From: the human T2T-CHM13v2.0 reference genome, Homo sapiens
Reading direction: 5' to 3' (one strand)
DNA length: 64,000 nucleotides
NCBI RefSeq assembly: GCF_009914755.1
Contig: NC_060948.1
Below the pieces are notes generated by a model. The model saw nothing but the letters and a program-made list of their open reading frames with translations, searched no databases and had not been told where the DNA came from. The position numbers and the translations under genes are program-made. The stretch's first letter is position 1. Every line of letters starts with the position of its first letter. Positions 37,001 through 64,000 of the stretch are shown here, in pieces.

Positions 37001-38450
37001 CAAAACTGCTGAATCAAAATAAAGGTTCAACGCTGTAAGATGAATGCACACAACACATTGAAGCTTTTCAGAATGCCTCCATCTGGTTTTTATATGAAGA
37101 TATTTCCTTTTCCACAATAGACCTCAAAGTGCTCTAAATGTACACTTGCAGGTTCTGCAAAAAGGGTGTTTCAGAACTGTTCAATGAAAGGAAGGTTCAA
37201 CTCCGTGAGACCAATGCACAGATTACGAAGGAGTTTGTCAGAATATTTCTGTGTCCTGTTTGTGTGAAGATATTTCCCTTTCCACCATAGGCATCAAAGT
37301 GCTCCAAATGTCCACTTGCAGATTCTACAAAAACTGTGTTTGCAAGATGCTCAATCGAAAGAAATGTTCAATTCTGAGATGAATGCACACATCACAGAGA
37401 AGTTTCTCAGAATGATTCTTTCTAGTTATTATGTGAAGATATTTCGTTATTCACCATATGCCTCAAAGCAATCTTAATGTCCTCTTGTAGATTCTACAAA
37501 AACTGTGTTTCCAAGCTGTTCAATCAAAAGAAATATTCAATTCTGTGAGACGAATGCACACATCACAAAGAAGTTTCTCAGAATGGTTCTGTCTAGTTAT
37601 TATTTGAGGATATTTCGTTATCCACCAAAGGACTCAAAGAGCTCCAAATGTTCACTTGCAGATTCTACAAAAAGAGTGTTTCAAAACTGTTCAATGGAAA
37701 TTAAGGTTCAACTCTGTGAGATGAATGCACACATCACAAAGAAGTTTGTCAGAATGTTTCTCTCTATAGTTTTTATGTGAAGACACTTCCTTTTCCATCA
37801 TAGGCTTCAAGGCGCTCCAAAAGTCCACATGCAGATTGTACAAAGTGTTTCACGGCTGTTTAATCAAATGAAAGTTTCAACCCTGTGAGATGAATACACA
37901 CATCACAAAGAAAATTATCAGAATGCTTCTGTCTAGTTTTGTGAAGATATTTCCTTTTCCAGAATAGGCCTCAATGTACTCCAAGTGTCCAGTTGCAGAT
38001 ATTAAAAAAAATGGTGTTTCAAAACTGCTCAATCAAAACTAAAGTTCAACTCTGTGAGTTCAATGCATATATCACAAAGAAGTTTGTCAGAATGCTTCTG
38101 TCTAGTTTTTATGTGAAGATAGTTTCTTTTCACCTTATGCCTCAAATCGCTCCATATGTCCACTTGCAGATTCTGCAAAAAGAGTTTTTCCAATCTGTTC
38201 AATAAAAAGAAAGGTTCAACTCTGTGAGAAGAATGAACAAATCACACAGAAGTTTCTCAGAATGCTTCTGTCTAGGTTTTATGTGAATATATTTCCCTTT
38301 CCACCATAGGCGTCAAAGTGCTCCAGTCCACTACACTGCATTCCATTTCGTCCCATTCCATTCCACTCCAATCCACTCCACTCCAATGCACTCCATTCCA
38401 TTCCATTCCTTTCGATTCCACTCTATTCCAATCCAGGGTATTCCATACAA

Positions 38451-41400
38451 TTTTTTGAAAGGATCTCATTCTGTCTCCCAGGTTGGAGTGCAGTGGCACA
38501 GTGTCAGCTCACATTTCATTTCAACATTCCATTCCATTCCGTGGCATTCCATTCCATTCTATTCCATTCCACTCCACACCACTCCACTCCACTCCATTCC
38601 ATTCCATCCCATTCCACTCCACTACATTCCACTCGACTCCACTCCACTCCACTCGACTCCACTCCACTCCACTCGACTCCACTCCAATATACTCAGTTTC
38701 AATTCCATTCCATTCCATTCAACTCCATTGCATAACACTCCTTTATTTTGACAGGATCTCACCCTGTCAAAAAGTCTGGACTGCAGTGTCACAATCTCAG
38801 CTCACATTTCATTTCACCATTCCATTCCATTCGATTCCATTCCTTTCAACTCCATTCCATTCCACTTCACTCCACTCCACTCCATTCTACCCCAATCCCT
38901 TCCATTACACTAACTTCCATTCCATTCCTTTCTTCTGACAGGATGTCACTCTGTCATCCAGGCGGGAGTGCACTGGAACAATCTTAGCTGATATTTCACT
39001 TCACCTTTCCAATGCCTTGCCTTCCATTCCATTCCATTCCATTCCATTCCATTCCATTCCATTCCATTCCATTCCGTAACATTCCACTCCACTGCACCCA
39101 ACTCCAATCCACTCCACTTCAGTCCACTCCACTTCAATCCACTCAAATCCATTCCCTTCAATTCCACTCCATTTCATTCCACTCCATTACCCGCCACTCC
39201 ACTCCAGTCCACTCCACTCCATCCCATTCCATCCCACTCCATTCCACTCCATTCCACTCCACTCCACTCCATTCCATTCCAATCCATCCCACCCATTCCA
39301 CTCCATTCCACTCCACTCCACATCATTCTAGTCCACTCCACTCCACTCCATTTCGTTGAATCTCATTCCATTCCACTCCATTCCACTTCACTCCACTCCA
39401 CACCACTCCACTCTACTCCACTCCATTCCATCCCATTCCATTCCACAGCATTCCACTCCACTCCACTCCAGTAAACTCCACTCGACTCCATTGCATTCTA
39501 TTCCATTTCAATCGATTCCACTCCACTCCATCCCTTTCTTTCGACAGGATCTCACTCTGCTCCACATTCTACAATGCAGTGGCACAACCTCAGCTCACAT
39601 TTAATTTCACCATTCCATTCCATTCCATTCCATTCCATTCCATTCCACTCCACTCAACTCCAATCCATTCCACTCCAGTACATTCCATTAATACCAGTCC
39701 ACTCTACTACACTCCATTCCATCCCATTCCAATTCACTCCATTCCATTCTCCTCCACTCCACTCCAATCCACTCTACTCCACTACACTCTATTTCACTGC
39801 ACTCCATTCTATTCTACTCCATTGCATTCCATTCAATTCCACTCCATTCCACTCCACTGCCCTCCATTCCATCCCATTTCATTCCATTCCATTCCACTAC
39901 ATGCACTCCACTAGGCTCCACTCCATTTCATTGTATTCCATCCCATTCCTTTCCACTCGACTCCACTCCACTCCACTCCACGCCACTCCACTCCACTCCA
40001 TTCCATTCCATTCTATTCCATTCCATCCCATTCCTCTCCATTCCATTCCACTCCACTCAACTCCATTCAATTCCTTTCCATTCCACTCCACTTCATTGTA
40101 TTCCATTCCTTTCTTTAAATAGGATCTCACTCTGTTACACAGGCTGGAGGGCAGTGCCACAATCTAGATCACATTTCATTTCACCATTCCTTTCTATTCC
40201 ATTATATTCCACTCCATTCCACTCCTCTCTATTCAATCCCATTCCATTCCACTCCAATCCAATCCACTACACTACACTCCGTTCCTTTCCATTACATCAT
40301 ATTCCACTCCACTTCATTCCACGCCAATCGACTCCACTCCATTCCATTCCATTTCATTCCAATACACTCCATTACATTATATCCCTTTCTTTTGACAGAA
40401 TCTCACGCTGTCACCCAGGCCGGAATGCAGTGACACAATCTCAGCTCACATTTCATTTCACAATTCCATTCCATTGCGTTCTGTTCTGTACTGTTCTGCT
40501 GCATTCCACTCCACTCAATTCCACTCAACTAAACTCCAATCCACTCCCCTCAACTCCACTGCCATACACTCCACTTCAATACACTCCATCTCAATCCTTT
40601 CCACTCCATCCACTCCACTGCACTCCACTCCACTACATTCCATTTTATTCCATCCCATTCCATTCCACTCCTTTCAAAACCATTCCACTTCACTCCATTC
40701 CATTCCATTCCAACCCTTTTCATTCCATTCCATTCCATTCCATTCCATTCCATTCCATTCCATTCCATTCCATTCCATTCCATTTCATTTCATTCAGTTG
40801 GAATCCATTCCATTCCACTCGTTTCCATTCCATTCCTTTCCATTCCATTCCATTCCATCCCATTCCACTCCATTCCATTCCACTCCACTCCACTCCATTC
40901 CCCTCCTATCCACTTCATTACATTCTACTCCACTCCATTACATTCCTTTCTTTAGGCAGGATCTCACTCTCTCACCCAGGCTGGAGTGCAGTGGTGAATC
41001 TCAGCTCACATTTCATTTCTCCGTTCTATTCCATTCCATTCCATTCCATTCCATTCCATTCCATTCCATTCCACTCCACTCCAAACCATTCTATTCCATT
41101 CCATTCCATTCCATTCCATTCCATTCCACTCCACTCCAAACCATTCTATTCCATTCCATTCCATTCCATTCCACTGCATTTGCAGTCCACTGCTCTCCAT
41201 TCGACTCCACTCCACTCCACTCCACATCATTCCATTCCTATGCATCCCATTCTATTCGGCTGCAACCCCCTCAACTCCACTCCACTCTACTACACTCCAG
41301 TCCACTCCACTCTACTCCACTCCACTCCATTACACTCCATTCCATTCCATTCAACTCCATTCCATTCAATTCTTTTCCTTCAACAGAATCTCACTCTGTC

Positions 41401-44400
41401 ACCCAGGTTGGAGCTCAGTGGAACAATCTCATCTCACATTTCATTTCACCATTACATTACATTCCATTGCATTCCACTCAACTCCACTCAACTCCACTCC
41501 ATTCCATCCCATTGAGTTCCACTCCATTCCACTCTACTCAACTCCACTCCACTCCATTTTATTCCATTAAATCAAATTCCTTTCCAATCCATTAAACTCC
41601 ACTCCACTCCACTCCACTCCACTCCACTCCATTCCATTCCATTCCATTCCATTCCATTCCATTCCATTCCATTCCATTCCATCCTATTCTATTGAACTCC
41701 ATTCCACTCCACTCCATTCAATTCCATTCCACTTCATTCCATTTGATTTCTTTCTTTCGAAATTATCCCACTCTGAAACCCAGACTGGAGTGCAGTGGCA
41801 CAATCTCAGCACACATTTCATTTCACAATTCCATTAAATTCCATTAAATTCCATTCCATTCCACTACACTCCACTCTAGTCCACTCCTCTCCACTCCATT
41901 CCACTCCATTCCACATCACTCCAATCCAGTCCATTCCACTCCATTCCACTCCATCCCATTCCATTCCACTCCATTCCTCTCCACTCCATTCCACTCCACT
42001 TCACTCCACTCCACTTCATTCCATTCCACTCCATCCCTTTCCATTCCACTCCATTAAACTCCACTCCACAACACTCCTTCTCCCGCCATTCCATTCCATT
42101 GCACTCCATTCCTTTCCATTCCATTCGATTCCATTCCATTACATTCTATTCAGTTCAATTCCTCTCCATTACATTGCGCTCCACTCCACTCCACTACACT
42201 CCATTCCATTCCATTCCTTTCCACTGCATTCCACTCCTTTCCTTTCCAATACTTTCTTTTGACAGGATCTCACTCTGTCTCGCAGGCTGGTGTGCAGGGG
42301 CACATTCACAGCTCACATTAGATTTCACCATTGCATTCCATTCCATTTCACTCCACTCCATTCCATTCCACTACACACCTCTCCACTCCACTCCACTCTA
42401 TGCTACTCCACTCCATTCCAATCCACTCTATTCCATTTCATTCCACTCCACTCCACTCTATTCCATGCCATTCCTTCCCATTCCATTCCATTCCATTCCA
42501 TTCCATTCCATTCCATTCCATTCCATTCCACTCCATTCCATTCCATTCCATTCCGTTCCATTCCGTTTTGTTCCATTCCATTCCATTCCATTCTATTCCA
42601 TTCCATTCCATTCCATTCCATTCCATTCCATTCCATTCCTTTCCGTTGCATTCTGTTCCATTCCATTCCACTCCAATCCATTCCATTCCACTCCAATCCA
42701 TTCCATTCCACTCCAATCCATTCCATTCCTTTCTTTCGACATGGTCTCAATCAGTCACACAAGCTGGAGTGCAGTGGCACAATATCAGCTCAGATTTCGT
42801 TTCACCATTCCATTCCATTCCATTCCATTCCACTCCACTCCACTCCACTCCACCCCAATCCATTCCTCTCCACCCCACTCCACTCCACTCCACTACATTC
42901 CATTCCATACCAGTCCATTCCATTCCATTCCTTTCTTTCGACAGGTTATCACTCTGTCACGAAGGTTGGAGTATAGTGGCAGAATCTCTTTTCACATTTC
43001 ATTTCAGCATTCCGTTCCATTTCATTTGATTCCACTCTGCTCTATCCCATTCCTTTCTTTTGACAGTATCTCACTCTGTCAACCAGGCTGGACTGCAGTC
43101 GCATAATGTCAAGTCACATTACATTTCACCATTGCATTGCATTCCATTCCAATCCATTCCATTCCATTCCATTCCATGCCATTCCATTCCATGCCATTCC
43201 ATTCCATGCCATTCCATTCCATTCCATGCCATGCCATTCCATTCCATTCCATTCCATTCCATTCCATTCCATTCCATTCCATTCCATTCCACTCCATTCC
43301 ATTCTATTCTATTCCTTTATTTTGAAAGGATCTGACTCTGTCACACAGGCTGGAGGGCAGTGGAAGAATCTCAGCTCACATTTCATTTCACTATTCCATT
43401 CCATTCCATTCCACTCCACTCCACTCCACCCCACTCCACTCCATTCCTCTCCACTCCACTCAACTCCACTCCACTCCACTCCACCCCACTCCACTCCATT
43501 CCTCTCCACTCCACTCAACTCCACTCCACTCCACTCAACTGTACTCCATTCTGTCCCAATCAATTCCATTACACTAACTTCCATTCCATTCCTTTCTTTT
43601 CACATGATCTCACTCTGTCACACAGGGTGGAGTGCAGTGGCACAATCTCAGCTCACATTTCATTTCAACATTCCATTCCATTCCTTTCCATTCCATTCCA
43701 TACTTTTCCATTCCATTCCACTCCACTCCACTTCACTCCACCCAATTCCATTTCATTCCATTCCATTCAAATGCATTCCATTCCATTCCTTTCTTTCGAC
43801 AGTATCTCACTCTCTCACACAGGACTTAGTGTAGTGTCATAATTTCAGCTCACATTTCATTTCACCGTTCTATTCCTTTCCGTTCCATGCCATTCAATTC
43901 CATTCCATTCCACTGCAATCCACTCCTCTCCACTCCTTTCTATCCCATTCAATTCCAGTCCATTCCAATCCACACCACTTCACTCCAATCAATTCCATTC
44001 CATCCCATTCCATTCCACTCCATTCCACTCCACTCCACTCCATTCAATTCCATTTCATTCCATTCCACTACATTCCATTCCATTCTGTCTTTCGACAGGA
44101 TCTCACTTTGTCACATAGGTTGGAGTGCAGTGTCAAAATTTCATCTCATATTTCATTTCACCATTCCATTCCATTCCATTCCATTCCATTCCATTCCATT
44201 CCATTCCATTCCATTCCATGCCATGCCATGCCATTCCACCACACTCCGCTCTACTCCACTCCACTCCATGACATTCCATTCCACTCCATTCCATTCCTTT
44301 CTGTCTACAAGATCTAACTCTCTCACAATGGTTGGAGTTCAGTGGCAGAATCTCAGCTCACATTTCATTTCACCAATCCATTTCATTCCACTCCACTCAA

Positions 44401-47400
44401 TTCCACTCCACTCCAGTCAATTCCATCCCATTTCATTCCACTCCATTCCACTCCACTTCACTGCACTCCACTCCACTCCATTGTATCCTATTCCATTCCA
44501 TTCCACTCCAGTCCAATCCACTCCACTCTACTTCTTTTGATTCCATCCCATTCCATTCCAATCAATCCATTCCACTCCACTCCACTCAATTCCATTCCAT
44601 CCCATTCTATTCCACTACATTCCACTCCACACCACTACACGCCATTCCACTTCTTTCTATTCCATCCCATTCCATTCAACTCCAATCCACTCCACTCCAG
44701 TCCAATCCTGCCTACTCCATTCCATTCCACTTCATCCCATTCCATTCACGCAAATTCATTTCACTCCATTCCACTACACTCCATTCAATTCCATTCTATT
44801 CTATTCCATTCCACTCCACTCCTTTCCATTCTATTCCTTTTTTCGACAGGATCTCACTCTGTCACCCAGGCTGCAGTGCAGTCACACATTCTGAGCTCAC
44901 ATTTCATTTCACAATTCCATGGCATTACAGTCCATTTTATTGCATTCCATTCCATTCCATTCTATTCCATTCCATTCCATTCCACACAATTCCTCTCCAC
45001 TCCACTCTGCTGCATTCCATTCCATTCCATTCCATTCCATTCCATTCCATTCCATTCCATTCCATTCCATTCCACTCTATTCCACTCCATCCTAATCCAC
45101 CCAATTCCTTTCCACTCCATTCCACTCCACTCCAATGCAGTCCATTCCATTACATTCCATGCCATCCAATTCCACTCCATTCCACTCCACTCCACTCCCC
45201 TCAATTCTTTTCCATTCAATTCCACTCCATTCCATTCCTTTCTGTCAACAAGATCTCACTATGTCACACTGGCTGGAGTGCAGTGGCACAATCTCAGCTC
45301 ACATTTCATTTCTCCATTTCACTCCACTCCACTCCACTCAATCCAATTATATTCCACTCCATTCCACTCCACTTCTCTGCACTCCACTCCATTTCATTCC
45401 ACTCCATATCATTCCATTCCCCTCAACTGCACTCCACTCCTGTCCTCTTCTCTCCACTCCATTCCATTCCACTCCATTCCATTCCATTCCTTTTCTTCGA
45501 CAGGATCTCGCTCTGTCACTCAGGCTGGAGTGCAGTGGCACAATCTCAGCTCACATTTCATTTCACCATTCCATTTTATTCCATTGCATTCCATACCATT
45601 CCCTTTAATTCCAGTCAATTCCAATCCACTCCATGCCATTCCATTCCATTACTTTCCAGTTAATTCCACTCCATTCAACTCCACTCCACTCCACTATATT
45701 ACATTATATCCCGTCCAATTCCACTCCACTTCACTCCTCTCCACATTATTCCATTCCATTCCATTCCACTCCATTGCACTCCATTCCTTCCTTTTGACAA
45801 CATCTCACTATGTCACGCAGGCTGGGGTGCAGTGGCACAATCTCAGCTCACATTTCACTTCACTATTCCATTCCATTCCATTCCATTCCATTCCATTCCA
45901 TTCCATTCCATTCCATTCCACTCCACTGCACTGCACATCACTCTACTCCACTCCATTCCATTCCATTCCATTCCATTCCATTCCATTCCATTCCATTCCA
46001 TTCCACTCTTTCCCACTCCATTCCACTCCAGTTCACACCAATCCACTCTTCTGCACTCCATTCCATTCTATTCCATCCCATTCCTTTCCACTGAATTCCA
46101 CTCCACTCCACTCCACTCCATTCAATTCCATTTCATTCCATTCCACTCCATTCCATTCCATTCTGTCTTCAACAGGATCTCACTTTGTCACTTAGGCTGG
46201 AGTGCAGTGTCACAATTTCAGCTCACAATTCATTTCACTTTTCCATTCCATTCCATTCCTTTCAATTACATTCCACACCATTCCACCACCCTCCACTCTA
46301 CTCCATTCCATTCCATTGCATTCCATTCCATTTCGTTCCATTCCATTTCATTCCATTCCATTCCTTTTGTCTACAAGATCTAACTCTGTCACACCGGTTG
46401 GAGTGCAGTGGCAGAATCTCAGCTCACATTTCATTACACCAATCCATTTCATTCTACTCTACTCAATTCCACTCCACTCCAGTCAATTCCATCCCATTGC
46501 ATTCCACTCCATTCCACTATATTTCACTGCACTCCACTCCACTCCATTCCACGCCATACCATTCCATTCCCGTCCACTCCACTCCACTCCACTCAACTAC
46601 GCTCCACTCCATTGCATTCCATTCCATTCCACTCTATTGCATTCCATTCCTTTTCTTCGACAGGATCTCACTCTGTCCCTCAGGCTGAAGTACAGTGGCA
46701 CAATCTCAGCTCAAGATTCATTTCACCATTCCATTGCATTCCGTTGCATTCCATTCCATTCCATTTAATTCCGATCTACTACACTCCACTCCACTGCATG
46801 CCATTCCATTCCATTCCATTCCATTCCATTCCATTCCATTCCATTCCATTCCAGTACATTCCACTCCATTCCACTCCACTCCACTCTGCTATATTCCAGT
46901 CCATCCAGTTCCATTCAACTCCATTCCACTCCTCCACTCTAATCTACTCCACTGTACTCCTCTCCCCTCCATTCCATTCCAATGCATTCCATTCCATTCC
47001 ATTCCATTCCATTCCATTCCATTCCATTCCATTCCATTCCTTTCTTTCAACATCTCACTCTATCACACAGGCTGGAGTGCACTGGCAAAATCTCAGCTAA
47101 CTTTTCATTTCACCATTCCATTCCATTCCATTCCATTCCACTCCATAGCAATCCACTGTACTCCACTCCACTCCGTTCGCTTCCATTCCATTCCACTCCA
47201 TTCTACTCCACTCCCTTCCACTTCATTCCAATCCATCCCGTTCCATTCCACTCCATAAAACACCACTCCGCTCCACTTCATTCCATTCCATTCCACCCGA
47301 TTCCATGCCACTCCATTCCACTCCACTCCACTCCACTCCAATACATTCCAATCCATTTCATTCTATTCTACTCCATTCCATTCCATTCCTTTCTTTCGAC

Positions 47401-50400
47401 AGGATCTCACTCTGTCACACAGGCTCAACTGCACTTTTCCAATCTCAGCTCACATTTCACTTCACCATTCCATTCCATTCCATTCTATTCCATTCCTCTC
47501 CACTGCATTCCAGTCAAATCTATTTCATTCTATTACATTCCATTCCATTCGACTCCATTCCACTCCACTCCACTCCACACTACTCCAATCCACTCTATTC
47601 CATTCCATCCCTTTCAATTCCACTCCACTCCATTCCACTCCACTCCACTCCATTCCTCTCCTTCCCATTTCATTCCACTCCACTCTACTCCACTCCTCTC
47701 CACTCTATCCTATTCCATCCAGTTCCATTCCACTCCATTCCACTCCACTCCTTTTCATTTCATTCCATCCCATCTCATTCCACTCCATTCAACTCCACTC
47801 CACTAAACTGCACTCCACTCCACTCCATTCAATCCCATTCCATTCCACTCTATTCCATTCCATTCCTTTCTGTCAACAAGATCTCAGTCTCTCATACTGG
47901 CTGGAGTGCAGTGGCACCATCTCAGCTCACATTTCATTTCTCTATTCTATTCCATTCCACTCCACTCCACTCCACTCCACTCCACTCCACTCCACTCCAT
48001 TCAAGTGCATTCCACTCCATTCCACTACACTTCACTGCACTCCACTGCACTCCATTCCATTCCACTCCATACAATTCCATTACACTCCACTCCACTCCAC
48101 TCCACTCCTGTCAACTACTCTCCACTCCATTCCATTCCACTCCATTCCATTCCCTTCCTTTTCCTAGACTGGATCTGACTCTTTCACTCAGGCTGGAGTA
48201 CAGTGCACACTCTCAGCTCACATTTCATTTCACCATTCCATTGCATTCCATTCCCTTCCATTCCATTTAGTTCAAATCCATTCCACTCCACTCCACTCCA
48301 TGCCATTCCATTCTATTACATTCCAGTCCATTCCACTCCATTCTGCTCCACTCCACTACGCTATATACCATTACATCCTGTCTCATTCCACTCCATTCCA
48401 CTCTTCACTCTACTCCACTCCACTCCACTCCTCTCTACTCTATTCCATTCCATTCCATTCCATTCCACTCCATTCCACTCCATTCCATTCCATTCCTTCC
48501 ATTCGACAACATCTCACTCTGTCATGCAGGCTGGAGTGCAGTAGCGCCATCTCAGCTAACATTTCGTTTCAACATTCCATTCCATTCCATTCAATTCCAT
48601 TCAATTCCACTCAACTCTACTACATTACCCTCCCCTCCACTCTATTCCATTCCATTCCATTCCATCCCATTTCATTCCACTCTATTCCACGCCACTCTAC
48701 TCCACTCCACTCGATTCCACACTAGACTCCACTCCACTCCATTCCTTTCCATTCCATAACATTCCATTCCACTCCACTTTATTCCACTCCACTCCATTAA
48801 ATTCCATTCCTTCTTTCAACAGGATCTCACTCTGCCATACAGGCTGGAGCGCAGTGGCATAATCTCAGCTCACATTTCATTTTACCATTCCGCTGCATTC
48901 CATGCCATTCCACTCCATTCCACTCCACTTTTCTCTACTCCATTCCATTCCATTCCATTCCATTCCATTCCATTCCACTCCATTCCACTCCACTCCACTC
49001 AAGTCCACTTCACTCCATTCCATTCAATTCCAATGTACTCCACGCCACTCGTCTCCTCTCCATTCCATCCGATTCCATTCCATCCCTTCCATGCCACTCC
49101 ACTCCATTCCGTTCCTTACCATTACATCACATTCCACTCCACTCCACTCGACTCCACTCCACTCCATTACATTCCATTCCATTACGGTCCATTATATTAC
49201 ATTCCTTTCTTTTGACAGGATCTCACTCTGTCATCCAGGCTGGAATGCAGTGGCACAATCTCAGCTTACATTTATTTTAACGGTTCCATTCCTTTCCATT
49301 CCATTCCATTCCATCCCATTCCACTCCACTCCACTCAATTCCACTCCACTCCACTCCAGTCCACTAAACTCCACTCCATTCATTTCCATCCTATTACATT
49401 CCACTGCATTTCACACCACTTCACTCTCCTCCACTCCACTCCAATCCACTCTACTCCATTCCATCCCATTCCATTCCATTCCATTAAACTCCATTCCATT
49501 TAATTCCCTACTTTCTACAGAATCTCACTCTGTGAAACAGGCTTGAATGCAATAGCAAAATCGCATCTCACATATCATTTCACTGTACCATTCCTCATCA
49601 TTCCACTCCACTGTACTCCTCACCAATCCACGCCATTCCGCTCCATTCCATTCCACTCCATTCCATTCCGTTCCTTTCTTTCGACAGGATCTCACTCTGT
49701 TACCCAGGCTGGAGTGCAGTGTCACAATCTCAACTCACATTTCATTACACCATCCCAATCCATTCTATTCTGTTCCATTCCATTCCATTCCATTCCATTC
49801 CATTCCATTCTATTCTATTCCACTACTCTCCACTCCATTCCACTGCATTACATTCCACTCCATTCTATTCCATTTCACTCCACTCCACTCCAATCCAATC
49901 CACTCCATTTCACACCATCCCATTCCACTCCACTCTACTCCAATCCAATCCATTCCATTCTACTCCCTTACATTCCATTCCTTTCTCTCGACAGGATCTC
50001 ACTCCCTCACCCAGGCTGGATTGTAGTTGCACAATCTCACCTCACATTTTATTTCACCACTCTATTCCATTCCATTACATTGCATTCCATTTCATTGCAT
50101 TCCATTAATTGTATTCCATTCCATTCCATTTCATTCAATTCCATTCCACTACACTCCATTCAACTCCAATACACTCCACTCCACTCCATTCCATTCCATT
50201 CCATTCCTTTCCAATCCAGTCCACTCCACTGCACTCCACTCGACTCCACTCCTCTCCACTACTCTCCACTCCATTCCAATCCCCTCCATCCCATTGTTTT
50301 CCACTTCATTCCCCTCCACTGCACTGTAATCCACTCCTGTCCACTCCACTTCATTCCACTCCATTCCTTTCCACTCCTTTGAATTCCATTCCTTTATTTC

Positions 50401-53400: not shown

Positions 53401-56400
53401 TTCTATTCCATTCCATTCCATTCCATTCCATTCCATTCCATTCCATTCCATTCCATTCCACTCTTTCCCATTCCTTTCCTTTCTTTTGACAGGATCTCAC
53501 TCCATCAAACAGGCTGGAGTGTAGTGGTACAATCTCACCTCAATTTTCACTCCACCATTCCATTCCATTCCATTCCTTTCCATTCCATTCTACTCAACTT
53601 CAACCAACTCCACTGCATTGAACTCCATTCCACTCCACTTCACTCCACTCCTCTCCACTCCTCTACATTACATCTCATTCTATCCCACTCCATTCCACTC
53701 CACTCCACTCCAATCTACTCAATTCCATTACATCACATTCCATTCCATTCCATTCAATTCCACTCCACTCCAATCCACTCAACTGCAATCCTCTATATTC
53801 CATTCCATAACCTTCCATTACATTCCCTTCTGTTCCATTACATCACATTCCATTCCATTCCATTCTATTCCATTCCACTCCATTCCATTCCATTCCACTC
53901 CTTTCCATTCCTTTCCTTTCTTTTGACAGGATCTCACTCCGTCAAACAGGCTGGAGTGTAGTGGCACAATATCACCTGAAATTTCACTCCACCATTCCAT
54001 TCCTTTCCATTCCATTCCATTCCATTCCATTCCATTCCATTCCATTCCACTCCTTTCCATTGCTTTCCTTTCTTTTGACAGGATCTCACTCCATCTAACA
54101 GGCTGGAGTGTAGTGGTACAATCTCACCTCAAATTTCACTCCACCATTCCATTCCATTCCATTCCTTTCCATTCCATTCCATTCCATTCCATACCATTGC
54201 ATTCCATTCCACTGCATTCCTTTCCATTCTACTCAACTTCAATCAACTCCACTGCATTGCACTCCATTCCACTCCACTTCACTCCACTCCTCTCCACTCC
54301 TCTACATTACATCTCATTCTATCCCACTCCATTCCACTCCACTCCACTCCAATCTACTCAATTCCATTACATCACATTCCATTCCATTCCATTCAATTCC
54401 ACTCCACTCCAATCCACTCAACTGTAATCCTCTATATTCCATTCCATTCCCTTCCATTCCATTCCCTTCTGTTCCATTACATCTCATTCCATTCCATTCC
54501 ATTCTATTCCATTCCACCACATTCCATTCCATTCCACTTCTTTCCATTCCTTTCCTTTCTTTTGACAGGATCTCACTCCGTCAAAAAGGCTGGAGTGTAG
54601 TGGCACAATGTCACCTCAAATTTCACTCCACCTTTCCATTCCATTCCATTCCATTCCATTCCATTCCATTCCATTCCATTCCATGCCACTCCATTCCATT
54701 CCATTCCATCCCAGTCCATTCCACTCCATTCTACACCACTCCACTCCACTCCATTCCATTGCATTCCAACAGAATCTATTCCAGCCCACTCCATTCCATT
54801 CCATTCCCTGCTTTAGATAGGATCTCTCTCTGTGACACAACCTGGAATGCAGTAGCACAATCTCATCTCACATTTCATTTGACCATTCCATTCCACTACA
54901 TTCCACTACACTTCAGTCCACTCCACTCCACACTAATCCACGCCATTCCACTCCATTCAATTCCATTTCAGTCCATTCCACTCCATTCGACACCACTCCA
55001 ATCCACTCAACTCCACTTCATTCAACTTCAGTCCACTCCACTCCAGTCCACTCCACTTCATTACAGTCCATGCCATTCCATTCCACTCCATTCCACTGCA
55101 CTGCCCTTCACTCCACTACACGCCACTCCATTCCATTCCATTCCATCCCAGTTCATTGCACTCCATTCCACACCACACCACTCCACTCCACTTCATTCCA
55201 TTCCAATCCATCCCATTCCATTGCATCCCATTCCATTCCATTCCATCCCAGTGCATTCCCTTCCATTCCATTCCATTTCGTTCCATTCCATTCCTTTCTT
55301 TTGACAGGATCTCACTCTCTCACCTTGGCTGTAGTGAAGAGGCACAAACTCAGCTCACATTACATTTCACCATTGCATTCCATTCCATTTCACTCCTTTC
55401 CATTCCATTCCTTTCTACTCCTTTCCATTCCATTCCTTTCTACTCCATTCCATTCCATTCCACTCCAGTCTACTCCACTCCACTGCACTCCACTCCACTC
55501 CCTTCCACTACATTCCATCTCATTCCACTCCACTATGCTCCACTCCATTCCATGCCATTTCATCCCATTCCATTCCACTCCATTCCACTCCACTCCACTC
55601 CACTCCATTCCATGCCATTCCATTCCACTCCACTTGACTTCACTCCACTCCATTCGATTGCATTCCACTCCACTGCACTCTACTTCACTCCACTCCACTG
55701 CATTCCATACCATTCCATTCCACTCAATTCTACTCCACTCCACTTCATTCCAATCCATCCCATTCCATTATACTCCTTTCCCCACCACTCCACTCCACTC
55801 CACTTCATTCCATTTCATTCTATCCCATTCCATTCCACTTCAATCCACTCCACTGCACTCCATTCCACTCTATTAAATTCCTTTCCTTTCCATTCGACTC
55901 CATTCTATTTCTTTCCTTTCTATCAAAAGGATCTCACTCTGTCACACAGGTTCCACTGCACTGGCCCAGTCTCAGCTCTCATTTCATTTCACCATTCGAT
56001 TCGATTGGATTCCATTCCATTCCATTCCATTCCACTCCACTGCACTCCACTCCACTGCACGCCACTCCACTGCACTCCATTCCATTCCATTTCACTCGAC
56101 TCCATTCCAATCCACTCCACTCCATTACACTCCATTCCATTCCATCCCATTCATCCCATTCAATTTCCCTCTACTCCATTCCACTCCACTCCACTCCAAT
56201 TCACTCCATTCCATTCCATGCCATTCCATTCCACTCCTCTCCATTCCACTCCACTCCACTCTCCTCCTTTCCACTCCATCTCATTCCATTCCACTCCATT
56301 CCACTCCACTCACCTGCACTTCATTCCACTGTACTGCATTCCATTTCATTCCACTCCCTTCCATTTCATTCCACTCCCTTACATTCCATTCCTTTCTTTC

Positions 56401-59400
56401 GACAGGATCTCATTCTCTCACACAGGCTGGAGTGTAGTGGCACAATCTCGGCTCACATTTCATTTCGACATTCTATTCCATTGCATTCCATTGCACTCCG
56501 TTCCATTCTATTGCATTCCATTGCATTCCATTCCATTCCATTCCTCTCCACTCCACTCCATTCTACTCCACTCCAGTCCACTCTGCTCCAGTACACTCCA
56601 CTCCATTCCATTCATCTCCATTCCATTACTTTCCTTTCTTTCGACAGGATCTCACTCACCCAAGTTGGTGTGCAGTGGAAAAATCTCAGCTCACATTTCA
56701 TTGCACCACACCATTCCATTCCATCCCATCCCACTCCATTCCTTTAAATTCCATTCCATTACAGTCCACTCCACTCCATTTCACTCCACTCCACACCACT
56801 CCACTCCTTTCCATTCATTCCATTCCACTCCATTCCACTCCACTCCACTTCTTTACCATCCATCCCATTCCATTCCACTGCAATCCACTCCACTCCACTC
56901 CTGTCCACTCCATTCCATTCCATTCCATTCCATCCCATTCCGTTCAAACCAATCAACTCCACTCCACTCCACTCCAGTTCACTCCATACCGTTCCATTCC
57001 ATTCCACTCCTTTCCATTGCATTCCTTTCTTTTGACAGGATCTTATTCTGTCTGCCAGGTTCGAGTGCAGTGGCACAATCTCAGCTCACATTTCATTGCA
57101 CTATAGTATTCCGTGCCATTCCACACCACTCCATTCCTTTAAATTCCATTCCATTCTAGTCCACTCCACTCTACTCCACTTCACTCACTCTACTCCACAC
57201 CACTCTACTCCACTCCATTCCATCCCATTCCAGTCCACACCACTCTACTCCACTCCATTCCATCCCATTCCATTCCACTCCACTCCACTTCTTTCCATTC
57301 CATTCCATTCCACTCCACTCCACCTCACTCCACTCCACTCCTGTCCACTCCACTGCACTCCATTCCATTAAATTGCATTCCATTCCACTCCTTTCCTTTC
57401 CATTCGTTTCTCTTGAGAAGATCTCACTCTGGCACCCAGTCTGAAGTGCAGTGACACAATCTTAACTCACATTTCATTTCACCATTCCATTGCATTCCAT
57501 TCAATTGCATTCCTTTCCATTCTGTTCCATTACATTCCACTCCACTCAACTCCACTCCACTCCACCCTGCTGCTTTCCATTCCATTCCATTCCATTCCTC
57601 TCCATTCCACTCCACACTACTCCATTCCTCTACACTTCATCACATTCCATCCAATTCCATTCCATTCCATTCCATTCCAGTCAACTGCACTCCATTCCAC
57701 TCCATTCCATCCCATTGCATTCCACTCCATTCCACTCCATTTCACTGCACTCCACTCCACTCCATTCCATTCCACTCCCTACCATTCCATTCCCCTCCAA
57801 TGCACTCCACTCCAGTCAACTCCTCTCCACTCCATTACAATCCATTCCACTCTATTACATTCCATTCCTTTTTTTCAAAAGTATCTCACTCTGTCCCTCA
57901 GGCTGGAGAGAAGTGGCACAATTTCAGCTCACATTTCATTTCACCATTCCATTGCATTTCCTTTCATTGCCTTCCATTTAATTGCAATCCACCCCACGCC
58001 ATTCCATTCCATTCCACTCCACTCCATTTCACTCCATTCCACTCCATTCCACTAAACTCTACTCCACTTCATTGCATTCCATGCCGTCCCATTTCACTCC
58101 ATTCCACTCCTCTCCACTCTGCTCCACTCAACTCCACTGTACTCCTCTCCAATCCATTCCTTTCCATTCCCTTCCATTCCATTTTATTACATTCCATCTA
58201 TTTCTTTCATGAGCATCTCACACTCAACCAGGCTGGAGTGCAATGACACAATCTCCGCTCACATTTCATTTTACCATTCCATTCCATTCCATTCCTTTCC
58301 ATTCCATTCCATTCTACTCTACTGCACTCCACTTCACTCCACTCCAGTCCATTCCACTCCATTTAATTCCATTACATTACATTCCACTCCATTCCATTCC
58401 TTTCTTTCGAGAGGATCTCACTCTGTCACAAAGGCTGCACTGCAGTGACCAATATCAGCTCACATTTCGTTTCACCATTCCACTCCATTCCATTCCATTT
58501 CATTCCACTCCACTCCACTCCAATCTACTCCATTCCATTCCATCCAATTCCATGCCACTCCACTCCATTCCACTCCACTCCATTTCACTCCATCTCATTC
58601 CATTCCAATCCATTCCACTCCAGTCAACTCCACTTCACTCCACTCCATTCCATGCCATTCCATCCCATCCCATTCCATTCCATTCCATTCCATTCCATTC
58701 CATTCCATTCCATTCCATTCCATTCCATTCCATTCCATTCCATTCCATTCCATTCCACTCACTTCCATTCCATTCCACACCTTCCATTTGATTCCTTTCT
58801 TTTGAAAGGATCTCTTTCTCTCACCCAGGCTGGAGTGTAGTGGCACAATCAGATTACATTTCACCATGCTATTTCATTGCATTCCATTGCACTCCATTCC
58901 ATGGTATTCCGTTCCATTGCATTCCGTTGCATTTCATTACATTCCATACCATTCCATTGTATTCCATGGCATTTCGTTCCATCCCATTTCATTCCATTTC
59001 TTTCCACTCCTTTCCATTCCATTCCATTCCATTCAACTCCACTCCATTACACTCCTCTCCACTCCACTCCAATCCGTTCCATTCCACTCCCTTACATTCC
59101 ATTCCTTTCTTTCGACAGAATCTCACTCCCTCACCCATGCTGGAGTGCAGTGGCACAATCTCATCTCACATTTCATTTCACAGTTCTATTCCATTACATT
59201 CCGTTGCATTCCATTAATTGTATTGCATTCCATTCCATTTCATTCAATTCCATTCCACTACATTCCATTCAACTCCAATACATTCCACTCCATTCCATTC
59301 CATTCCTTTCTATTCCTTTTCACTCTAGTCCACTCCGCTGCACTCCACTTGACTCCGCTGCACTCCACTACTCTCCACTCCATTCCAATCCCTTCCATCC

Positions 59401-62400
59401 AATTGTATTCCACTTCATTCCCCTCTACTCCACTCTACTCCACTTCTGTCCACTTGACTTCACTCCACTCCATTCCATTACACTCCATTGAATTCCATTC
59501 CTTTCTTTCACCAGGATCTCATTCTCTCACCCTGCTTGCAGTGCAGTGGAACAATCTCAGATCGCATTTCATTTCACCTTTCCATTCTATTCCATTCCAT
59601 TCCACTTCATTCCATTCCATTCCACTCTGCTCCATTCCACTCCACTCCACTGCACTCCGTTCATTTCCATTCCAATCCGTTCCACTCCATTCCATTCCGT
59701 TCCTTTCTTTTGACAGGATCTCACTCTCTCACACAGGCTAAAGTACAGTGGCAAAATTTAAGTTCATATTTCATTTCACCATTCCATTCCATTCCACTCC
59801 ACTCCACTCAATTCCCTTCCATTCCACTCCATTCCACTTCACTCCAGTCCACTCCATTCAATTACGTTCCATTTCATCCCACTCCTATCCATTCCATTCC
59901 TTTCTTTCGACAGGATCTCATTCTGTCACCCAGCCTATAGAGCAGTGGCACAATATCAGCTCACATTTAATTTCATCATTCCATTACATTGCATTCCATT
60001 CAATTCCATACTATTCCATTCCATTCCATTCCAATCTGCTGCATTTCATTCCATTGCATTCCACTTCACTCTACTCCACTACTCTACACTCCATCCCATT
60101 CCATCCCATTCAATTCCACTCCACTCCACTCTATTGCATTCCCTCTCATCCCATTCCAAGCCATTCCACTCAAATCCACACTACTCCACTCCACTCTACT
60201 CCACTCCATTCCATTCCATTCCATTGCATTCCATTCCATTCCATTCCATTACTTTCTGTCGAGAAAATCTCACTCTGTCACACTGGCTGTAGTGCAGTGT
60301 TGCACTTTCAGCTCACATTTCATTTCACCTTTCCTTTCTATTCCATTCCACTCCACTCCATTCTATGCCATTGCATTCCACTGCATTCCACTCCACTTCA
60401 CTGCACTCCACTCTACTCCATTCCATTTCACTCCCTACCATTCCATTCCCCTCCACTCCACTCCACTCCAGTCAACTCCTCTCCACTCCCTTCCATTCCA
60501 TTCCATTCCACTCTATTACATTCCATTCTTTTTCTTCGACAGTATCTCACTCTGTCCCTCAGGTTGGAGTGCAGTGGCACAATCTCAGTCACATTTCATT
60601 TCACCATTCCATTGTATTTCCTTCCATTGCATTCCATTTAATTACAATCCACTCCTCTCCACTCCACGCCATTCCATTCCATTCCAGTACCTTCCACTAA
60701 ATTCAACTCCATTCCACTACACTCCACGCCACTTCATTCCATTCCATGCCGTCCTATTTCACTCCATTCCACTCCTCTCCACTCTACTCCACTCCACTGC
60801 ACTCATCTCCAATGCATTCCGTTCCATTCCCTTCCATTCCATTCCATTCCATTCCACTCCATTCCATTCCATTCCGTTCCATTCCGTTCTGTTCCGTTCC
60901 ATTCCGTTCCATTCCGTTCCATTCCATTCCATTCCATTCCATTCCATTCCATTCCCTAAAATTCCATTAAATTCCAGTCCACTCCTCTCCATTCCATCTC
61001 ATTCTGTTCCACTCCATTCCACTCCATTCCACTCCTCTTCTTTCCATTCCAACCCATTCGATTCCATTCCAGTCCACTCCACTCCACTCCTGTCCACTCC
61101 ATTGCATTCCATTCACGCCAATCCACTGCACTCCACTTAATTCCATTCCATGCAACTCCTTTCCATTCCATTCCATTATTCAACAGGATGTCTCTCTGTC
61201 ACCTAGCTGGAGTGCAGTGGCACAATCTCAGCTCACGTTTTATTTAATCATTCCATTTTATACATTGCATTCCATTCCATTCCACTCTGCTGCATTCCAT
61301 TCCATTCGATTCCATTCCACTCCATTCCACTCCTATGTACTCCACTCGACTCCACTCCACTCCACCACAATCCGCTCCATTCCATTCCACTCCATAACAT
61401 TCTATTCCAATTCATTCCCCTGCACTCCACTCCCCTCTACTCCGTTTCAGTCCACTCCACTCCACTCTATTCCACTCCACTCCGTTACATTACACTCCAT
61501 AACATTCTAATCCAATACATTCCCCGACACTGCAGTCCCCTGTACTTCGTTCCAGTCCACTCCACTCCACTCTACTCCAGTCCACTCCATTCCATTTCAC
61601 TCCATTCCATTACATTCCTTTTTTTCGACAGGATCTCTCACTGTCACACAGGCTGGAGTACAGTGGCACAATCTCAGCTCACGTTTCATTTAACCATTCC
61701 ATTGCATTCCATTCCATTCCATTCCATTGCATTCCACTTCAGTCTGCTGTATTCCATTTCATTCGATTCCATTCTACTCCATTCCACTCCAATACACTCC
61801 ACTCAACTCCACTCCACTCCACTCTATTCCATTACACTCCATAATATTCTATTCCAATAAATTCCTTTCCACTCCACTAAACTCAACTCCATTCCAGTCC
61901 ACTCCACTCCACTCCACTCCATTCCACTCCATTCCATTCCACTCAATTCCATTCCGCTGCATTCCATTCCATTCCTTTCTTCCGACAAAATCTCACTCTG
62001 TCACCCAGGTTAAAGGCAGTTGAACAATATCAGCTCACATTTCGTTTCACCATAGCGTTCCATTCCATTCCATTCCTTTAAATTCCATTCCATTTCAGTC
62101 CACTCCACTCCACTCCACTTCACCCCACTCCACTCCACTCCGCTTCATTCCTTCCCTTTCATTTCCACTCCAGTCCACAACACTCCAATCCACTCAACTT
62201 CTTTCCATTCCATCCCATTCCATTCCACTCTAATCCACTGCACTCTACTCCACTCCTTTCCACTCCATTCCATTCCACTCCATCCCATTCCATTCACGCC
62301 AATCCACTCCACTCCACTCCTTTCCACTCCACTACATTGCGTTCCTTTCCACTCTTTTTCATTCCATTCCTGTCTTTTGACAGAATCTCACTTTTTCACC

Positions 62401-63992
62401 CAGGCTGGAGTGCAGTGGCACAATCTCAGCTCACATTTCATTTTACCATTCCATGGCATTCCATTCCATTTCATTAATTTCCATTCCACTCCACTCCACT
62501 CCACTCTGCTGCATTCCATTCCGTTCCATTCCATTCCATTCCATTCCATTCCATTCCATTCCATTCCGTTCCATTCCATTGCACTCCACTCTACTCCTCT
62601 CCACTCCATCCCATTGCATCCCATCCCATTCCATGTCATTCCACTCTACTCCACTCCATTCCATTCCATCCCACTCCATTTCATTCTGTGCTTTTCTGTC
62701 AACAAGATCTCACTCTGTCACATTGGCTGGAGTGCAGTCACAGAGTCTCAGGTCACATTTCATTCTACATTCCATTCCATTCCACTCCACTCCACTCCAC
62801 ATCACTCCACTGCACTCCACTCCATTCAATCCCATTGCATTCCGCTCCATTCAACTCCACTTCACCGCACTCCACTCCACTTCGTTCCATTCCACTCCAC
62901 CACCTTCCGTTCTACTCCACTACAATCCACTGCAGTGCACTACTCTCCATTCCATTCCATTCCACTCTATTCCATTCCATTCCTTTTCTTCTACAGGATA
63001 TCTCTCTGTCACTCAGGCTGGAGTGCAGTGGCACAATCTCAGCTCACATTTCCTTCACCATTCCATTCCATTCCATTCTGCTTCATTCCATTACATTACG
63101 TTCCATTTAATTCCAATCTATTGCACTGCACTCCTCTCCACACTACTCCATGCCATTCCATTCTATTACATTCCAGTTCAATCCACTCCATTTCACTACA
63201 TTCCACTCCAATTTTTTCCATTACATCCCGTTTCATTCCAGTTCCATTCGATTCCATTCCATTCCACTCCATTCCATTCCATTCCATTCCATTCCATTCC
63301 ATTCATCTCCATTTCATTCATCTCCATTCCACTCCATTCCATTCCATTCCATTCCATTCCATTCCATTCCATTCCATTCCATTCCATTCATCTCCATTCC
63401 ATTCCATTCCATTCCATTCCATTCCATTCCATTCCATTCCATTCCATTCCGTTCCATTCCATTCATCTCTATTCCATTCCATTCATTCCTTTTAACATCA
63501 TCTCACACTGTCACGGAGGCTGGAGTTCAGTGATAGAATCTCAGCTCACATTACATTTCACCATTCCATTCCATTCCATTCCATTCCTTTGTGTTCCATT
63601 CCACTCAACTGCACTGAATCCCACTCCATTCCACTCGCTTCAGTTCCATTCCATTCCATTCCATTTCATTCCATTCCATTCCATTCCACTCCATTCCAGT
63701 CCATTCCATTCCATTCCACTCCATTCCATTCCATTCCATTGCACTCCATCCCATTCCATTCAACTCTTTTCCACATGACTCCACTCCACTCCACTCCATT
63801 CCACAACACTCCAATCCACTCCATTCCATTCCTTTTCATTTGATCCCATTCCATTCCACTCTGTTCCACTCCACTCCACTCCTTTCCATTCCATTCCATT
63901 CCATTCCACTCCATTCCATTCAATTCTTTCCTTCGACAGGATCTCACTCTGTCACACAGGCTGGAGTGCAGTGGCACAATCTCAGCTGACAT
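38451..63992 (-). mobile_element. About 70-75 tandemly amplified ~60-bp Alu 3'-end fragments embedded in the pentamer satellite
   Basis: Recurring tttctttcgacaggatctcactctgtcacccaggctggagtgcagtggcacaatctcagctcac, the reverse complement of the Alu arm 3' end. Examples start near 38455, 38750, 38937, 39543, 40394, 45499, 49683, 56401, 61627, 63935. Each is typically followed by atttcatttcaccattcc. Confidence 0.9.
53480..54640 (+). repeat. Local tandem duplication of a two-unit block (~0.6 kb) in the composite satellite
   Basis: Alu-fragment variant ctcactcc(a/g)tc-aa-aggctggagtgtagtgg occurs at ~53488, 53925, 54077, 54563. Spacer ctactcaacttcaa(c/t)caactccactgcattg occurs at ~53590 and ~54229. 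Confidence 0.8.
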
Positions 63993-64000
63993 TTCATTTC

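What the first reader, a model, noticed from the sequence alone, without database searches (positions are those of the whole stretch)
38451..64000. Composite Alu-fragment / CATTC satellite: one ~60-bp antisense Alu piece amplified about 75 times as a fixed module
Seen: the same Alu segment, with the same two ends, the same orientation and the same flanks (ttcctttcttt before, atttcatttcaccattcc after), recurs about every 345 bp on average, between pentamer spacers of variable length. Inference: these are not independent retrotranspositions. One truncated Alu was captured in a CATTC array and the Alu-plus-pentamer unit was then amplified as a new satellite monomer. Standard annotation would split this into simple repeats plus many tiny Alus and hide the unit. 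I cannot tell whether it is already catalogued as an HSat3 subfamily.
Basis: partly seen in the sequence, partly recalled or inferred. Interest (0 to 1): 0.8.

Follow-up and report, generated by a model that had tools for sequence, protein, structure and literature searches.

The report
Alu fragment module in HSat3 satellite
This stretch is the start of the Y chromosome's pericentromeric HSat3 satellite, where one short piece of an old Alu element recurs as a fixed insert between CATTC-type repeats; the same insert sits in HSat3 on at least twelve other chromosomes and has been noted in print, so it is real but ordinary.

Summary
From 38,321 to the window end the + strand is a CATTC/CACTC pentamer array. 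It holds 74 same-strand copies of a ~79-bp module: a T-rich tail remnant, about 56 bp of antisense Alu 3' end, and a fixed variant-pentamer flank. Mean spacing is 349 bp (122-643).

A single origin is well supported by shared ends, shared orientation and shared derived changes. All four Alu CpG sites were already lost in the founder.

It is not a regular new monomer, and it did not arise in this window. There is no period, and copies are only 78% alike pairwise. The window is the edge of a ~373-kb Y array with roughly 800 modules. The same module with the same ends lies in HSat3 on chromosomes 1, 3, 4, 9, 10, 13, 14, 15, 17, 20, 21 and 22. Y copies do not cluster.

The T2T-Y paper already reports HSat3 intermingled with Alu fragments on Y and the acrocentrics, with one seeding and no local homogenization.

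Verdict: real, old and essentially known. The Alu subfamily and the catalogue name remain unresolved.

The parts
38321..64000 (+). Proximal edge of the chrY pericentromeric HSat3 array (CATTC/CACTC pentamers on the + strand). It runs on beyond the window to about chrY:11,261,600.
   Evidence: TRF period 5 over 38339-63926. GC skew is -0.7 to -0.85 from 38 kb onward. Spacers consist of CATTC and CACTC rotations with 2.8% G. For the extent.
38452..64000 (+). 74 copies of the ~79-bp module: T-rich tail remnant, ~56 bp of antisense Alu 3' end, and the fixed flank ATTTCATTTCACC. Modules make up 22.7% of the array bases in the window.
   Evidence: Profile hits, by start: 38452, 38740, 38927, 39533, 40108, 40384, 40945, 41374, 41750, 42252, 42728, 42930, 43052, 43314, 43591, 43788, 44086, 44296, 44838, 45237, 45489, 45786, 46167, 46365, 46649, 47039, 47388, 47865, 48158, 48495, 48810, 49204, 49507, 49673, 49980, 50391, 50613, 50830, 51342, 51616, 51940, 52168, 52578, 52895, 53316, 53478, 53915, 54067, 54554, 54807, 55293, 55915, 56391, 56633, 57024, 57407, 57867, 58201, 58399, 58794, 59104, 59500, 59702, 59899, 60252, 60530, 61179, 61617, 61974, 62370, 62693, 62983, 63486, 63926. 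The last is cut by the window end. Base share.
43052..43130 (+). Example of a full-length module (profile positions 1-79).
51542..53487 (+). ~1.9-kb segment of the array with a younger copy 6.2 kb downstream.
   Evidence: Module pairs 17 modules apart are 95-97.5% alike. A sliding global alignment gives 0.77-0.98 identity (mostly 0.90 or more) over 51542-53487 against 57793-59711, compared with about 0.6-0.75 outside that stretch.
57793..59711 (+). Second copy of the ~1.9-kb segment.
53554..54707 (+). Local tandem duplication: 53554-54068 matches 54193-54707 at 95.3% over 515 bp.
   Evidence: TRF also reports period 152 with 92% matches at 53846-54224.
26006..38325 (.). Flank: diverged 171-bp alpha-satellite monomers that abut the HSat3 array.
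   Evidence: TRF period 171, 72.5 copies, 78% matches.
33788..34095 (+). Genuine full-length Alu (sense on +, long A tail) inside the diverged alpha satellite. Used here as the in-window Alu comparator; it is not part of the array.

Best explanation
Window 38,321-64,000 is the centromere-proximal edge of the ~373-kb HSat3 array that follows the DYZ3 alpha satellite on Yq.

Proposed history:
- One Alu lay antisense to the CATTC strand in an ancestral HSat3 array.
- Only its last ~56 bp and a remnant of the A tail were kept.
- All four CpG sites in that piece had already decayed by then.
- The piece, with a characteristic variant-pentamer flank, became part of the repeating material. It was multiplied with the pentamers by unequal exchange or duplication.
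- Slippage and unequal exchange in whole pentamers then made the spacers irregular.
- The lineage spread to many pericentromeres and acrocentric short arms. Since then its copies have mostly decayed in place, with occasional kb-scale duplications.

Shown: single origin, fixed ends, genome-wide spread, lack of Y-specific homogenization, in-phase spacer variation.

Inferred: the order of events, the exchange mechanisms and the age.

I infer no sequence-specific function for the module. It is passenger DNA in constitutive heterochromatin.
For: Fixed ends and strand:
- All 74 window copies are on the + strand, and 69 of 75 profile hits are end to end.
- In ten further 10-kb Y samples, 164 of 190 hits are full length.
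- On 12 other chromosomes, 118 of 129 hits are full length.

Alu homology and break points:
- The module aligns to the antisense 3' end of real Alus, from the T run to GCTCAC, then departs into ATTTCATTTCACC.
- The module consensus matches the majority of 17 real Alus at 49 of 56 columns, and at 46 of 50 non-CpG columns.

Shared derived states:
- At the four Alu CpG sites, about 72-82% of 358 modules carry A where the Alu has G. This indicates loss before amplification.
- The module's own CpG is split CG 133 / TG 97 / CA 58 of 358, which indicates decay after amplification.
- One column is A in the module consensus and G in all 17 real Alus.

Tree: all 358 modules form a clade that excludes 6 real Alus.

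Pentamer phase: spacing is 2 mod 5 in 38 of 73 intervals, binomial p = 1.2e-9. Spacer length is 3 mod 5 in 46 of 73.

Genome-wide spread:
- 1,483 junction matches against 0 for the backwards control.
- The consensus is the same on all 13 chromosomes sampled.
- Y-Y identity is 0.765, below Y-to-other identity of 0.785.

Recent duplications inside the array.

Print: passages of Rhie et al., preprint 10.1101/2022.12.01.518724.
Against: - Support for the module clade is only 0.70, on 56 columns with just 6 real Alus as outgroups.
- The left boundary abuts generic pentamers. 'Same left flank' beyond TTTCTTTC therefore carries little information.
- Reading TTTCTTTC as an A-tail remnant is an inference from alignment to the T run.
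- No regular unit length exists. 'Amplified as a unit' cannot be shown directly; one can only say the piece was multiplied together with pentamers.
- Dating is loose. Modules differ from their consensus by 9.6-13.9%, against 10.3% for 17 genomic Alus at the same columns. Mutation rates in satellites are unknown.
- I could not see the RepeatMasker/Dfam or CenSat labels, or any ape genome.
Confidence: 0.85

Rival explanations
1. Many independent Alu retrotranspositions into a pentamer array that acts as an insertion hot spot.
For: The array is rich in T-rich sites, and a real young Alu sits 4 kb away in the alpha satellite.
Against: - The 5' break point, the strand and the non-pentamer right flank are the same in 69 of 75 window hits, and likewise on 12 other chromosomes.
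- The founder's four CpG losses and a module-specific substitution are shared.
- The modules form one clade.
- There are no full-length or variably truncated members in the array.
Confidence: 0.02
2. One reading: a Y-local event in which the Alu-plus-pentamer unit was amplified in place as a new satellite monomer, possibly with Y as the source for other chromosomes.
For: - Module density is highest at the two ends of the Y array, at 27-35 per 10 kb.
- Y copies are the most diverged: 12.5% against 7.9-9.7%. That could mean the Y array is the oldest.
Against: - No period and no lag structure.
- The consensus is the same on 13 chromosomes, and Y-Y identity is lower than Y-to-other identity.
- A Y module's nearest neighbour is another Y module in 175 of 240 cases, against a 0.67 share expected.
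- The higher divergence on Y is equally expected from male-biased mutation.
Confidence: 0.1
3. The module is kept because it does something, for example as a transcription-factor or enhancer site, or as a structure-forming element that punctuates HSat3.
For: - RefSeq lists an 'enhancer' at 38347-38985, covering the first three modules (hub table; not tested).
- The module is the only G-containing island in a G-poor strand: 15.8% G against 2.8% in the spacers.
Against: - Copies have drifted 8-14% from consensus, as much as a sample of ordinary genomic Alus.
- The module's CpG decays freely.
- Density varies five-fold along the array.
- DNA folds of 4 sequences (3 modules; one of them on both strands) give z-scores from +0.6 to -2.6 with different structures.
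Confidence: 0.05

Closest known systems
HSat3 arrays 'intermingled with Alu fragments' on chrY and the acrocentric short arms (Rhie et al., T2T-Y; preprint passages read)
   Same: The same phenomenon and very probably the same array. Alu fragments are interspersed in Y HSat3, group with those on the acrocentrics, show no local homogenization and no clustering by chromosome, and stem from one seeding event. My reproduce each point. Among the Y HSat3 arrays I sampled, only this one holds the module: DYZ17 has 0 in 4 x 10 kb and Yq12 DYZ1-type has 0 in 4 kb.
   Different: The passages I read do not state the fixed ~79-bp module, its break points or its presence on chromosomes 1, 3, 4, 9, 10, 17 and 20. 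They call the fragments AluY, derived from PAR1. My small tests lean towards an older source. I did not see the preprint's figures or supplements.
HSat1B / DYZ2 (composite satellite with an Alu-derived subunit)
   Same: An Alu piece fixed as part of a satellite repeat on Y and the acrocentrics (passages).
   Different: DYZ2 is a regular ~2.4-2.5-kb unit with copies mostly more than 98% alike and a long Alu part. Here a 56-bp piece sits at irregular 122-643-bp spacing, and copies are 78% alike.
Classical HSat3 subfamilies A1-A6 and B1-B5 (Altemose et al. 2014, PMC4022460; Table 1 read)
   Same: A CATTC-derived pericentromeric satellite whose chromosome set overlaps those listed for several subfamilies.
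   Different: None of the 14 representative 24-mers occurs exactly in the window array or in the Y samples L011-L020. Only the chr10 and chr17 samples hold the 3A4 marker, 3 exact matches each. DYZ17 holds the 3A3 marker. One 24-mer per subfamily is too thin a test to assign or exclude.
DYZ19 (125-bp units derived from an LTR fragment; passage)
   Same: A fragment of a mobile element turned into tandem-repeat material on Y.
   Different: In DYZ19 the fragment itself is the head-to-tail unit. Here the fragment is an insert within a pentamer satellite.

Membership tests
HSat3 (human satellite 3) | Array derived from the CATTC/GGAAT pentamer | tested here: met
   TRF period 5 over 38339-63926. 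Spacer 5-mers are rotations of CATTC (about 1,330-1,420 each) and CACTC (about 850-900 each).
HSat3 (human satellite 3) | Pericentromeric position next to alpha satellite | tested here: met
   It abuts 171-bp monomers at 38,321-38,325. Hallast et al. place a 372-488-kb HSat3 array next to DYZ3 on the q side (passage). I measure about 373 kb.
HSat3 (human satellite 3) | Assignment to one of the 14 k-mer subfamilies | tested here: inconclusive
   0 exact matches to any of the 14 representative 24-mers in the window array and in L011-L020. The specialised annotation tool and the CenSat track were not available.
Alu (SINE) insertion | Sequence homology to Alu | tested here: met
   The module matches the majority of 17 real Alus at 49 of 56 columns. 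The in-window Alu hits the core profile at positions 4-65.
Alu (SINE) insertion | Dimeric element of about 300 bp, or variably 5'-truncated copies, each with its own target-site duplication | tested here: not met
   Only the last ~56 bp are present, with the same break in nearly all copies and shared flanks.
Alu subfamily AluY (as named in print) | Diagnostic positions of AluY | tested here: inconclusive
   At the one informative column, the module shares G with the 3 most diverged of 17 real Alus (3 of 3) and with none of the 14 others. No Dfam consensus was at hand, and subfamily labels of the 17 Alus are unknown.
Composite satellite or higher-order repeat with a defined unit | Constant unit length and periodic similarity | tested here: not met
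   Spacing is 122-643 bp. Mean identity is 0.78-0.80 at every lag from 1 to 15. TRF finds only local 2-5-copy duplications.
HSat3-Alu association of Rhie et al. | Fragments on Y group with acrocentric ones; no local homogenization or clustering by chromosome | tested here: met

The most novel reading that the evidence does not exclude
The module marks a distinct, old and so far unnamed HSat3 lineage:
- It is irregular, decayed and carried on at least 13 chromosomes.
- It was seeded from a CpG-depleted Alu of an old type at about the age of the bulk of genomic Alus, rather than from a PAR1 AluY as printed.
- Because its copies then decayed in place, it works as a built-in clock. Y copies are 12.5% diverged against 7.9-9.7% on autosomes, which would be a direct readout of male-biased mutation inside satellite DNA.
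Probability: 0.3. Interest if true: 0.4.

Novelty: already known. Interest (0 to 1): 0.2.

Why it matters
- Annotation. The hundreds of tiny 'Alu' calls in this array, and thousands elsewhere, are one inherited insert. They are not insertions and should not be counted as Alu events or used for insertion-site statistics.
- A lineage marker. The module offers a convenient unique-ish anchor: a junction 21-mer with 1,483 hits against 0 for the control. It could be used to map, count and date this HSat3 lineage in human and ape T2T assemblies.
- Mutation rates. It would allow comparison of decay on Y and on autosomes.
- Mechanism. It does not change the current understanding of how satellites form.

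Tried and rejected
- Subfamily typing. I used the 14 representative 24-mers of Altemose 2014. There were no exact hits in the array, so the test is uninformative.
- Higher-order period. Lag analysis of module identity was flat. A megablast self-comparison found only one 515-bp duplicate.
- Conserved hairpin. DNA folds of 4 sequences were inconsistent.
- A second recurrent non-pentamer element in the spacers. None was found; the commonest G-containing 12-mers are single-base pentamer variants.
- HSAT5 as a possible catalogue name. This is a recalled lead only. The passages read say no more than that HSAT5 is pericentromeric or on acrocentric arms.
- More real Alus for subfamily typing.
- Older literature. 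The Altemose 2022 review and four 1990-93 papers on satellite III clones are not held. Two papers by Cooper, Fisher and Tyler-Smith on the Yq pericentromere are recalled but were not looked up; they may describe this array.
- Literature searches for a prior explicit description. Only Rhie et al. surfaced.
Full report
WHAT IS IN THE WINDOW

The hub places the window at chrY:10,850,001-10,914,000 of T2T-CHM13v2.0.
- TRF shows 171-bp alpha-satellite monomers (78% matches) from 26,006 to 38,325.
- From 38,321 to 63,926, TRF shows a period-5 array with unit CATTC on the + strand.
- Base composition changes at the same place. GC skew falls from about -0.1 to between -0.7 and -0.85.

CHECKING THE OBSERVATION

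- blastn with one copy (40,380-40,470) finds 74 plus-strand copies between 38,453 and 64,000. It also finds one minus-strand hit at 34,012-34,083.
- That minus-strand hit is a genuine full-length Alu with a long A tail inside the alpha satellite.
- A MAFFT alignment of the 74 copies with 40 bp and 130 bp of flank gives a sharply bounded conserved core of 79 bp. On both sides it runs into generic pentamers.
- A profile of the core recovers the same 74 copies. Of the 75 hits (74 modules plus the real Alu), 69 run end to end, from profile positions 1-5 to 75-79.
- Spacing averages 349 bp, with median 332 and range 122-643.
- Modules make up 5,820 of 25,680 bases of the array in the window.

ANATOMY OF THE MODULE

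I aligned the module consensus to the antisense strand of the in-window Alu and of 16 other real Alus. Those 16 came from 90 kb of other loci: L020-L026, L037 and L038 (L038 had none). The alignment shows three parts:
- A short T-rich stretch (TTTCTTTC) lies where Alus have their T run, that is, the A tail seen from the other strand.
- About 56 bp follow that match the last part of the Alu, up to GCTCAC.
- At that point real Alus continue with Alu sequence, but the module switches to ATTTCATTTCACC and then to plain pentamers.

The module consensus equals the majority of the 17 Alus at 49 of 56 columns, and at 46 of 50 non-CpG columns. The left end is therefore the natural 3' end of an Alu. The right end is a truncation.

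ONE ORIGIN OR MANY?

Four lines of evidence point to a single origin.
- Break points and strand are shared, as shown above.
- At the four places where Alus have CpG, the modules carry A in place of G in about 72-82% of 358 copies, and hardly ever G. The founder had lost these CpGs before it multiplied.
- As an internal control, the module's own CpG at the tail junction is now CG in 133, TG in 97 and CA in 58 of 358 copies. That is the two-way decay expected after multiplication.
- One column is A in the module consensus and G in all 17 real Alus.
- In a FastTree tree of the 56 Alu-homologous columns, all 358 modules form a clade that excludes the 6 real Alus then available. Support is 0.70, which is modest for so few columns.

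Independent insertions are effectively excluded.

IS IT A MONOMER?

No.
- Spacing is irregular.
- Mean identity between modules is 0.78-0.80 at every lag from 1 to 15. Pairwise identity averages 0.785, and identity to the consensus 0.876.
- The variation does keep pentamer phase. Spacing is 2 mod 5 in 38 of 73 intervals (binomial p = 1.2e-9). Spacer length is 3 mod 5 in 46 of 73.
- Spacers hold only CATTC-type and CACTC-type pentamers, with 2.8% G and no second recurrent insert.

This fits growth and shrinkage of spacers in whole pentamers by slippage or unequal exchange; that mechanism is an inference.

Younger events are also visible:
- A 515-bp tandem duplicate at 95.3% identity.
- A ~1.9-kb segment (51,542-53,487) copied 6.2 kb downstream at 0.77-0.98 identity per 200-column step, mostly 0.90 or more.

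BEYOND THE WINDOW, ON Y

The assembly can be searched. I took twenty 10-kb samples of chrY.
- Module hits per 10 kb at 10.914, 10.95, 10.99, 11.03, 11.07, 11.11, 11.15, 11.19, 11.23 and 11.26 Mb were 35, 31, 20, 11, 6, 13, 11, 27, 29 and 7. All were on the + strand except one, and 164 of 190 were full length.
- Samples from 11.29 to 11.50 Mb gave only 0-3 partial hits each, none full length.
- Samples from 11.70 to 12.50 Mb gave none.
- In the 11.26-Mb sample the pentamers stop at about base 1,634. The array therefore spans roughly chrY:10,888,321-11,261,600, about 373 kb.
- Hallast et al. give 372-488 kb for the HSat3 array next to DYZ3, followed by DYZ17 (passage).
- From 183 hits in the nine evenly spaced full samples, I extrapolate roughly 800 modules on Y.
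- The samples at 11.9-12.5 Mb are pentamers on the other strand. They hold the HSat3A3 marker 24-mer and no module.
- A 4-kb sample of Yq12 at 30.0 Mb is also pentameric and holds no module and no Alu.

BEYOND Y

- The 91-bp query matches with the same ends on chromosomes 13, 14, 15, 21, 22, 20, 17, 4, 3 and 1 within the 40 scored matches, out of 1,752 first-look candidates.
- The junction 21-mer with up to 1 mismatch occurs 1,483 times. The backwards control occurs 0 times. The part of the list that was shown adds chromosomes 9 and 10.
- That pattern hits 30 of 74 modules in the window, 39 of 189 in the other Y samples and 67 of 110 in non-Y samples. The family therefore numbers several thousand.
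- In 3-4-kb samples of 12 other chromosomes, 118 of 129 profile hits are full length. Spacing there is again irregular, at 149-834 bp.
- The consensus is the same everywhere. Chromosomes 10 and 17 share a variant further upstream.
- Y copies do not cluster. Y-Y identity is 0.765, Y-to-other 0.785 and other-to-other 0.813. The nearest neighbour of a Y module is a Y module in 175 of 240 cases, against a 0.67 share expected.
- Non-Y modules do find non-Y neighbours in 116 of 118 cases. Much of that reflects recent duplications among the acrocentrics. For example, the chr15 and chr13 samples L004 and L005 have identical spacing patterns.
- Non-CpG divergence from the consensus is 12.5% on Y (CI 12.1-13.0), 7.9% on the acrocentrics and 9.7% on the other autosomes.

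The capture therefore predates the spread of this HSat3 lineage, and the Y array has largely decayed in place.

AGE AND ALU TYPE

These remain open.
- At the same 50 non-CpG columns, the 17 genomic Alus differ from their majority by 10.3% on average. Modules differ from theirs by 9.6-13.9%. Taken at face value, the multiplication is about as old as the bulk of genomic Alus, but satellite mutation rates are unknown.
- At the one column that splits the real Alus, the module shares G with the 3 most diverged Alus (68, 70 and 74% identical to the young in-window Alu). It shares it with none of the 14 others.
- From memory, that state belongs to the oldest Alu class. I could not test this against Dfam consensuses.
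- The published label is AluY.

WHAT IS IN PRINT

Rhie et al. (T2T-Y preprint; passages read) state the following:
- The fragments in Y HSat3 cluster with those on the acrocentrics.
- There is no evidence of local homogenization, and no clustering by subgroup or chromosome.
- The seeding was a single event separate from that of HSat1B, from PAR1 AluY elements.

My results reproduce all of this except the subfamily call, which I can neither confirm nor refute. The passages I read do not spell out the fixed 79-bp module, its break points, or its presence on chromosomes 1, 3, 4, 9, 10, 17 and 20. I did not see the preprint's Fig. 5d or its supplements, which are closed.

Other sources:
- Altemose 2014 (passages and Table 1) does not contain the word Alu, according to the search listing.
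- In passages of Altemose 2021, of the preprint 10.1101/2024.10.22.616524, of Hoyt 2021, of a review and of two Y-population preprints, I found no description of the module.
- Searches.

FUNCTION

I see no sign of a sequence-specific role.
- Copies drift as ordinary Alus do.
- The module's own CpG decays.
- Density varies five-fold along the array.
- Folds show no common structure.
- A RefSeq 'enhancer' row covers the junction and the first three modules (hub table). I could not test it.

VERDICT

The single-capture reading is right. The 'new monomer amplified here' reading is not. The phenomenon is already described. What remains is a name, a date and the Alu type.

Noticed in passing
window 33788-34095: A full-length Alu (sense on +, A tail of about 20) sits inside the diverged alpha satellite. 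It carries 7 extra bases relative to five other Alus in the alignment. From memory, that is typical of the young AluYb group. Hallast et al. mention an Alu at the q-arm boundary of the Y centromere.
   Followed up: partly
window 38347-38985: The RefSeq 'enhancer' row of the hub table spans the alpha-satellite/HSat3 junction and the first three modules (38452, 38740, 38927). Its basis is unknown to me.
   Followed up: no
L015:710-6843 (chrY about 11,070,710-11,076,843): A ~6.1-kb LINE-1 on the minus strand interrupts the HSat3 array. ORF1 is open (356 aa, L1 RBD, dsRBD and trimerization domains). ORF2 is split into 833 aa (endonuclease plus reverse transcriptase) and 477 aa.
   Followed up: partly
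G000:C22:5,943,080-6,007,746 (places): Module hits on chr22 recur at steps of 12,630-12,660 bp (5,969,737; 5,982,397; 5,995,027; 6,007,657). There the composite seems to be embedded in a larger, recently homogenized tandem unit.
   Followed up: no
L004 (chr15) vs L005 (chr13); L006 (chr21) vs L008 (chr13): Module spacing patterns are identical or nearly identical between samples from different acrocentric chromosomes. This points to recent interchromosomal duplication of this HSat3 lineage.
   Followed up: no
358 modules, all sampled loci: Y copies are more diverged from the common consensus (12.5%) than acrocentric copies (7.9%) or other autosomal copies (9.7%). This is the direction expected from male-biased mutation, but an older Y array would look the same.
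   Followed up: partly
module columns matching the four Alu CpG sites: All four founder CpG losses go the same way: G to A on the window's + strand, that is, C to T on the Alu sense strand. By chance this has a probability of 1 in 16, so it may mean nothing.
   Followed up: no
L027-L030 (chrY 11.9-12.5 Mb) and L026 (11.70 Mb): The DYZ17-region samples carry the HSat3A3 marker 24-mer exactly: 2, 5, 2 and 0 times. They are on the opposite strand to the proximal array. L026 holds one exact HSat2B marker.
   Followed up: no
L020:8853-9898 (chrY about 11,268,853-11,269,898): A 1-kb GATGAT/GATGGT-type tandem array (period 6/9/12) lies just distal to the end of the HSat3 array.
   Followed up: no
window 1-26005: The hub's mask intervals repeat every 5,785 bp (1326, 7111, 12896, 18681, 24466). 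This fits the DYZ3 higher-order alpha-satellite repeat. I did not analyse it.
   Followed up: no
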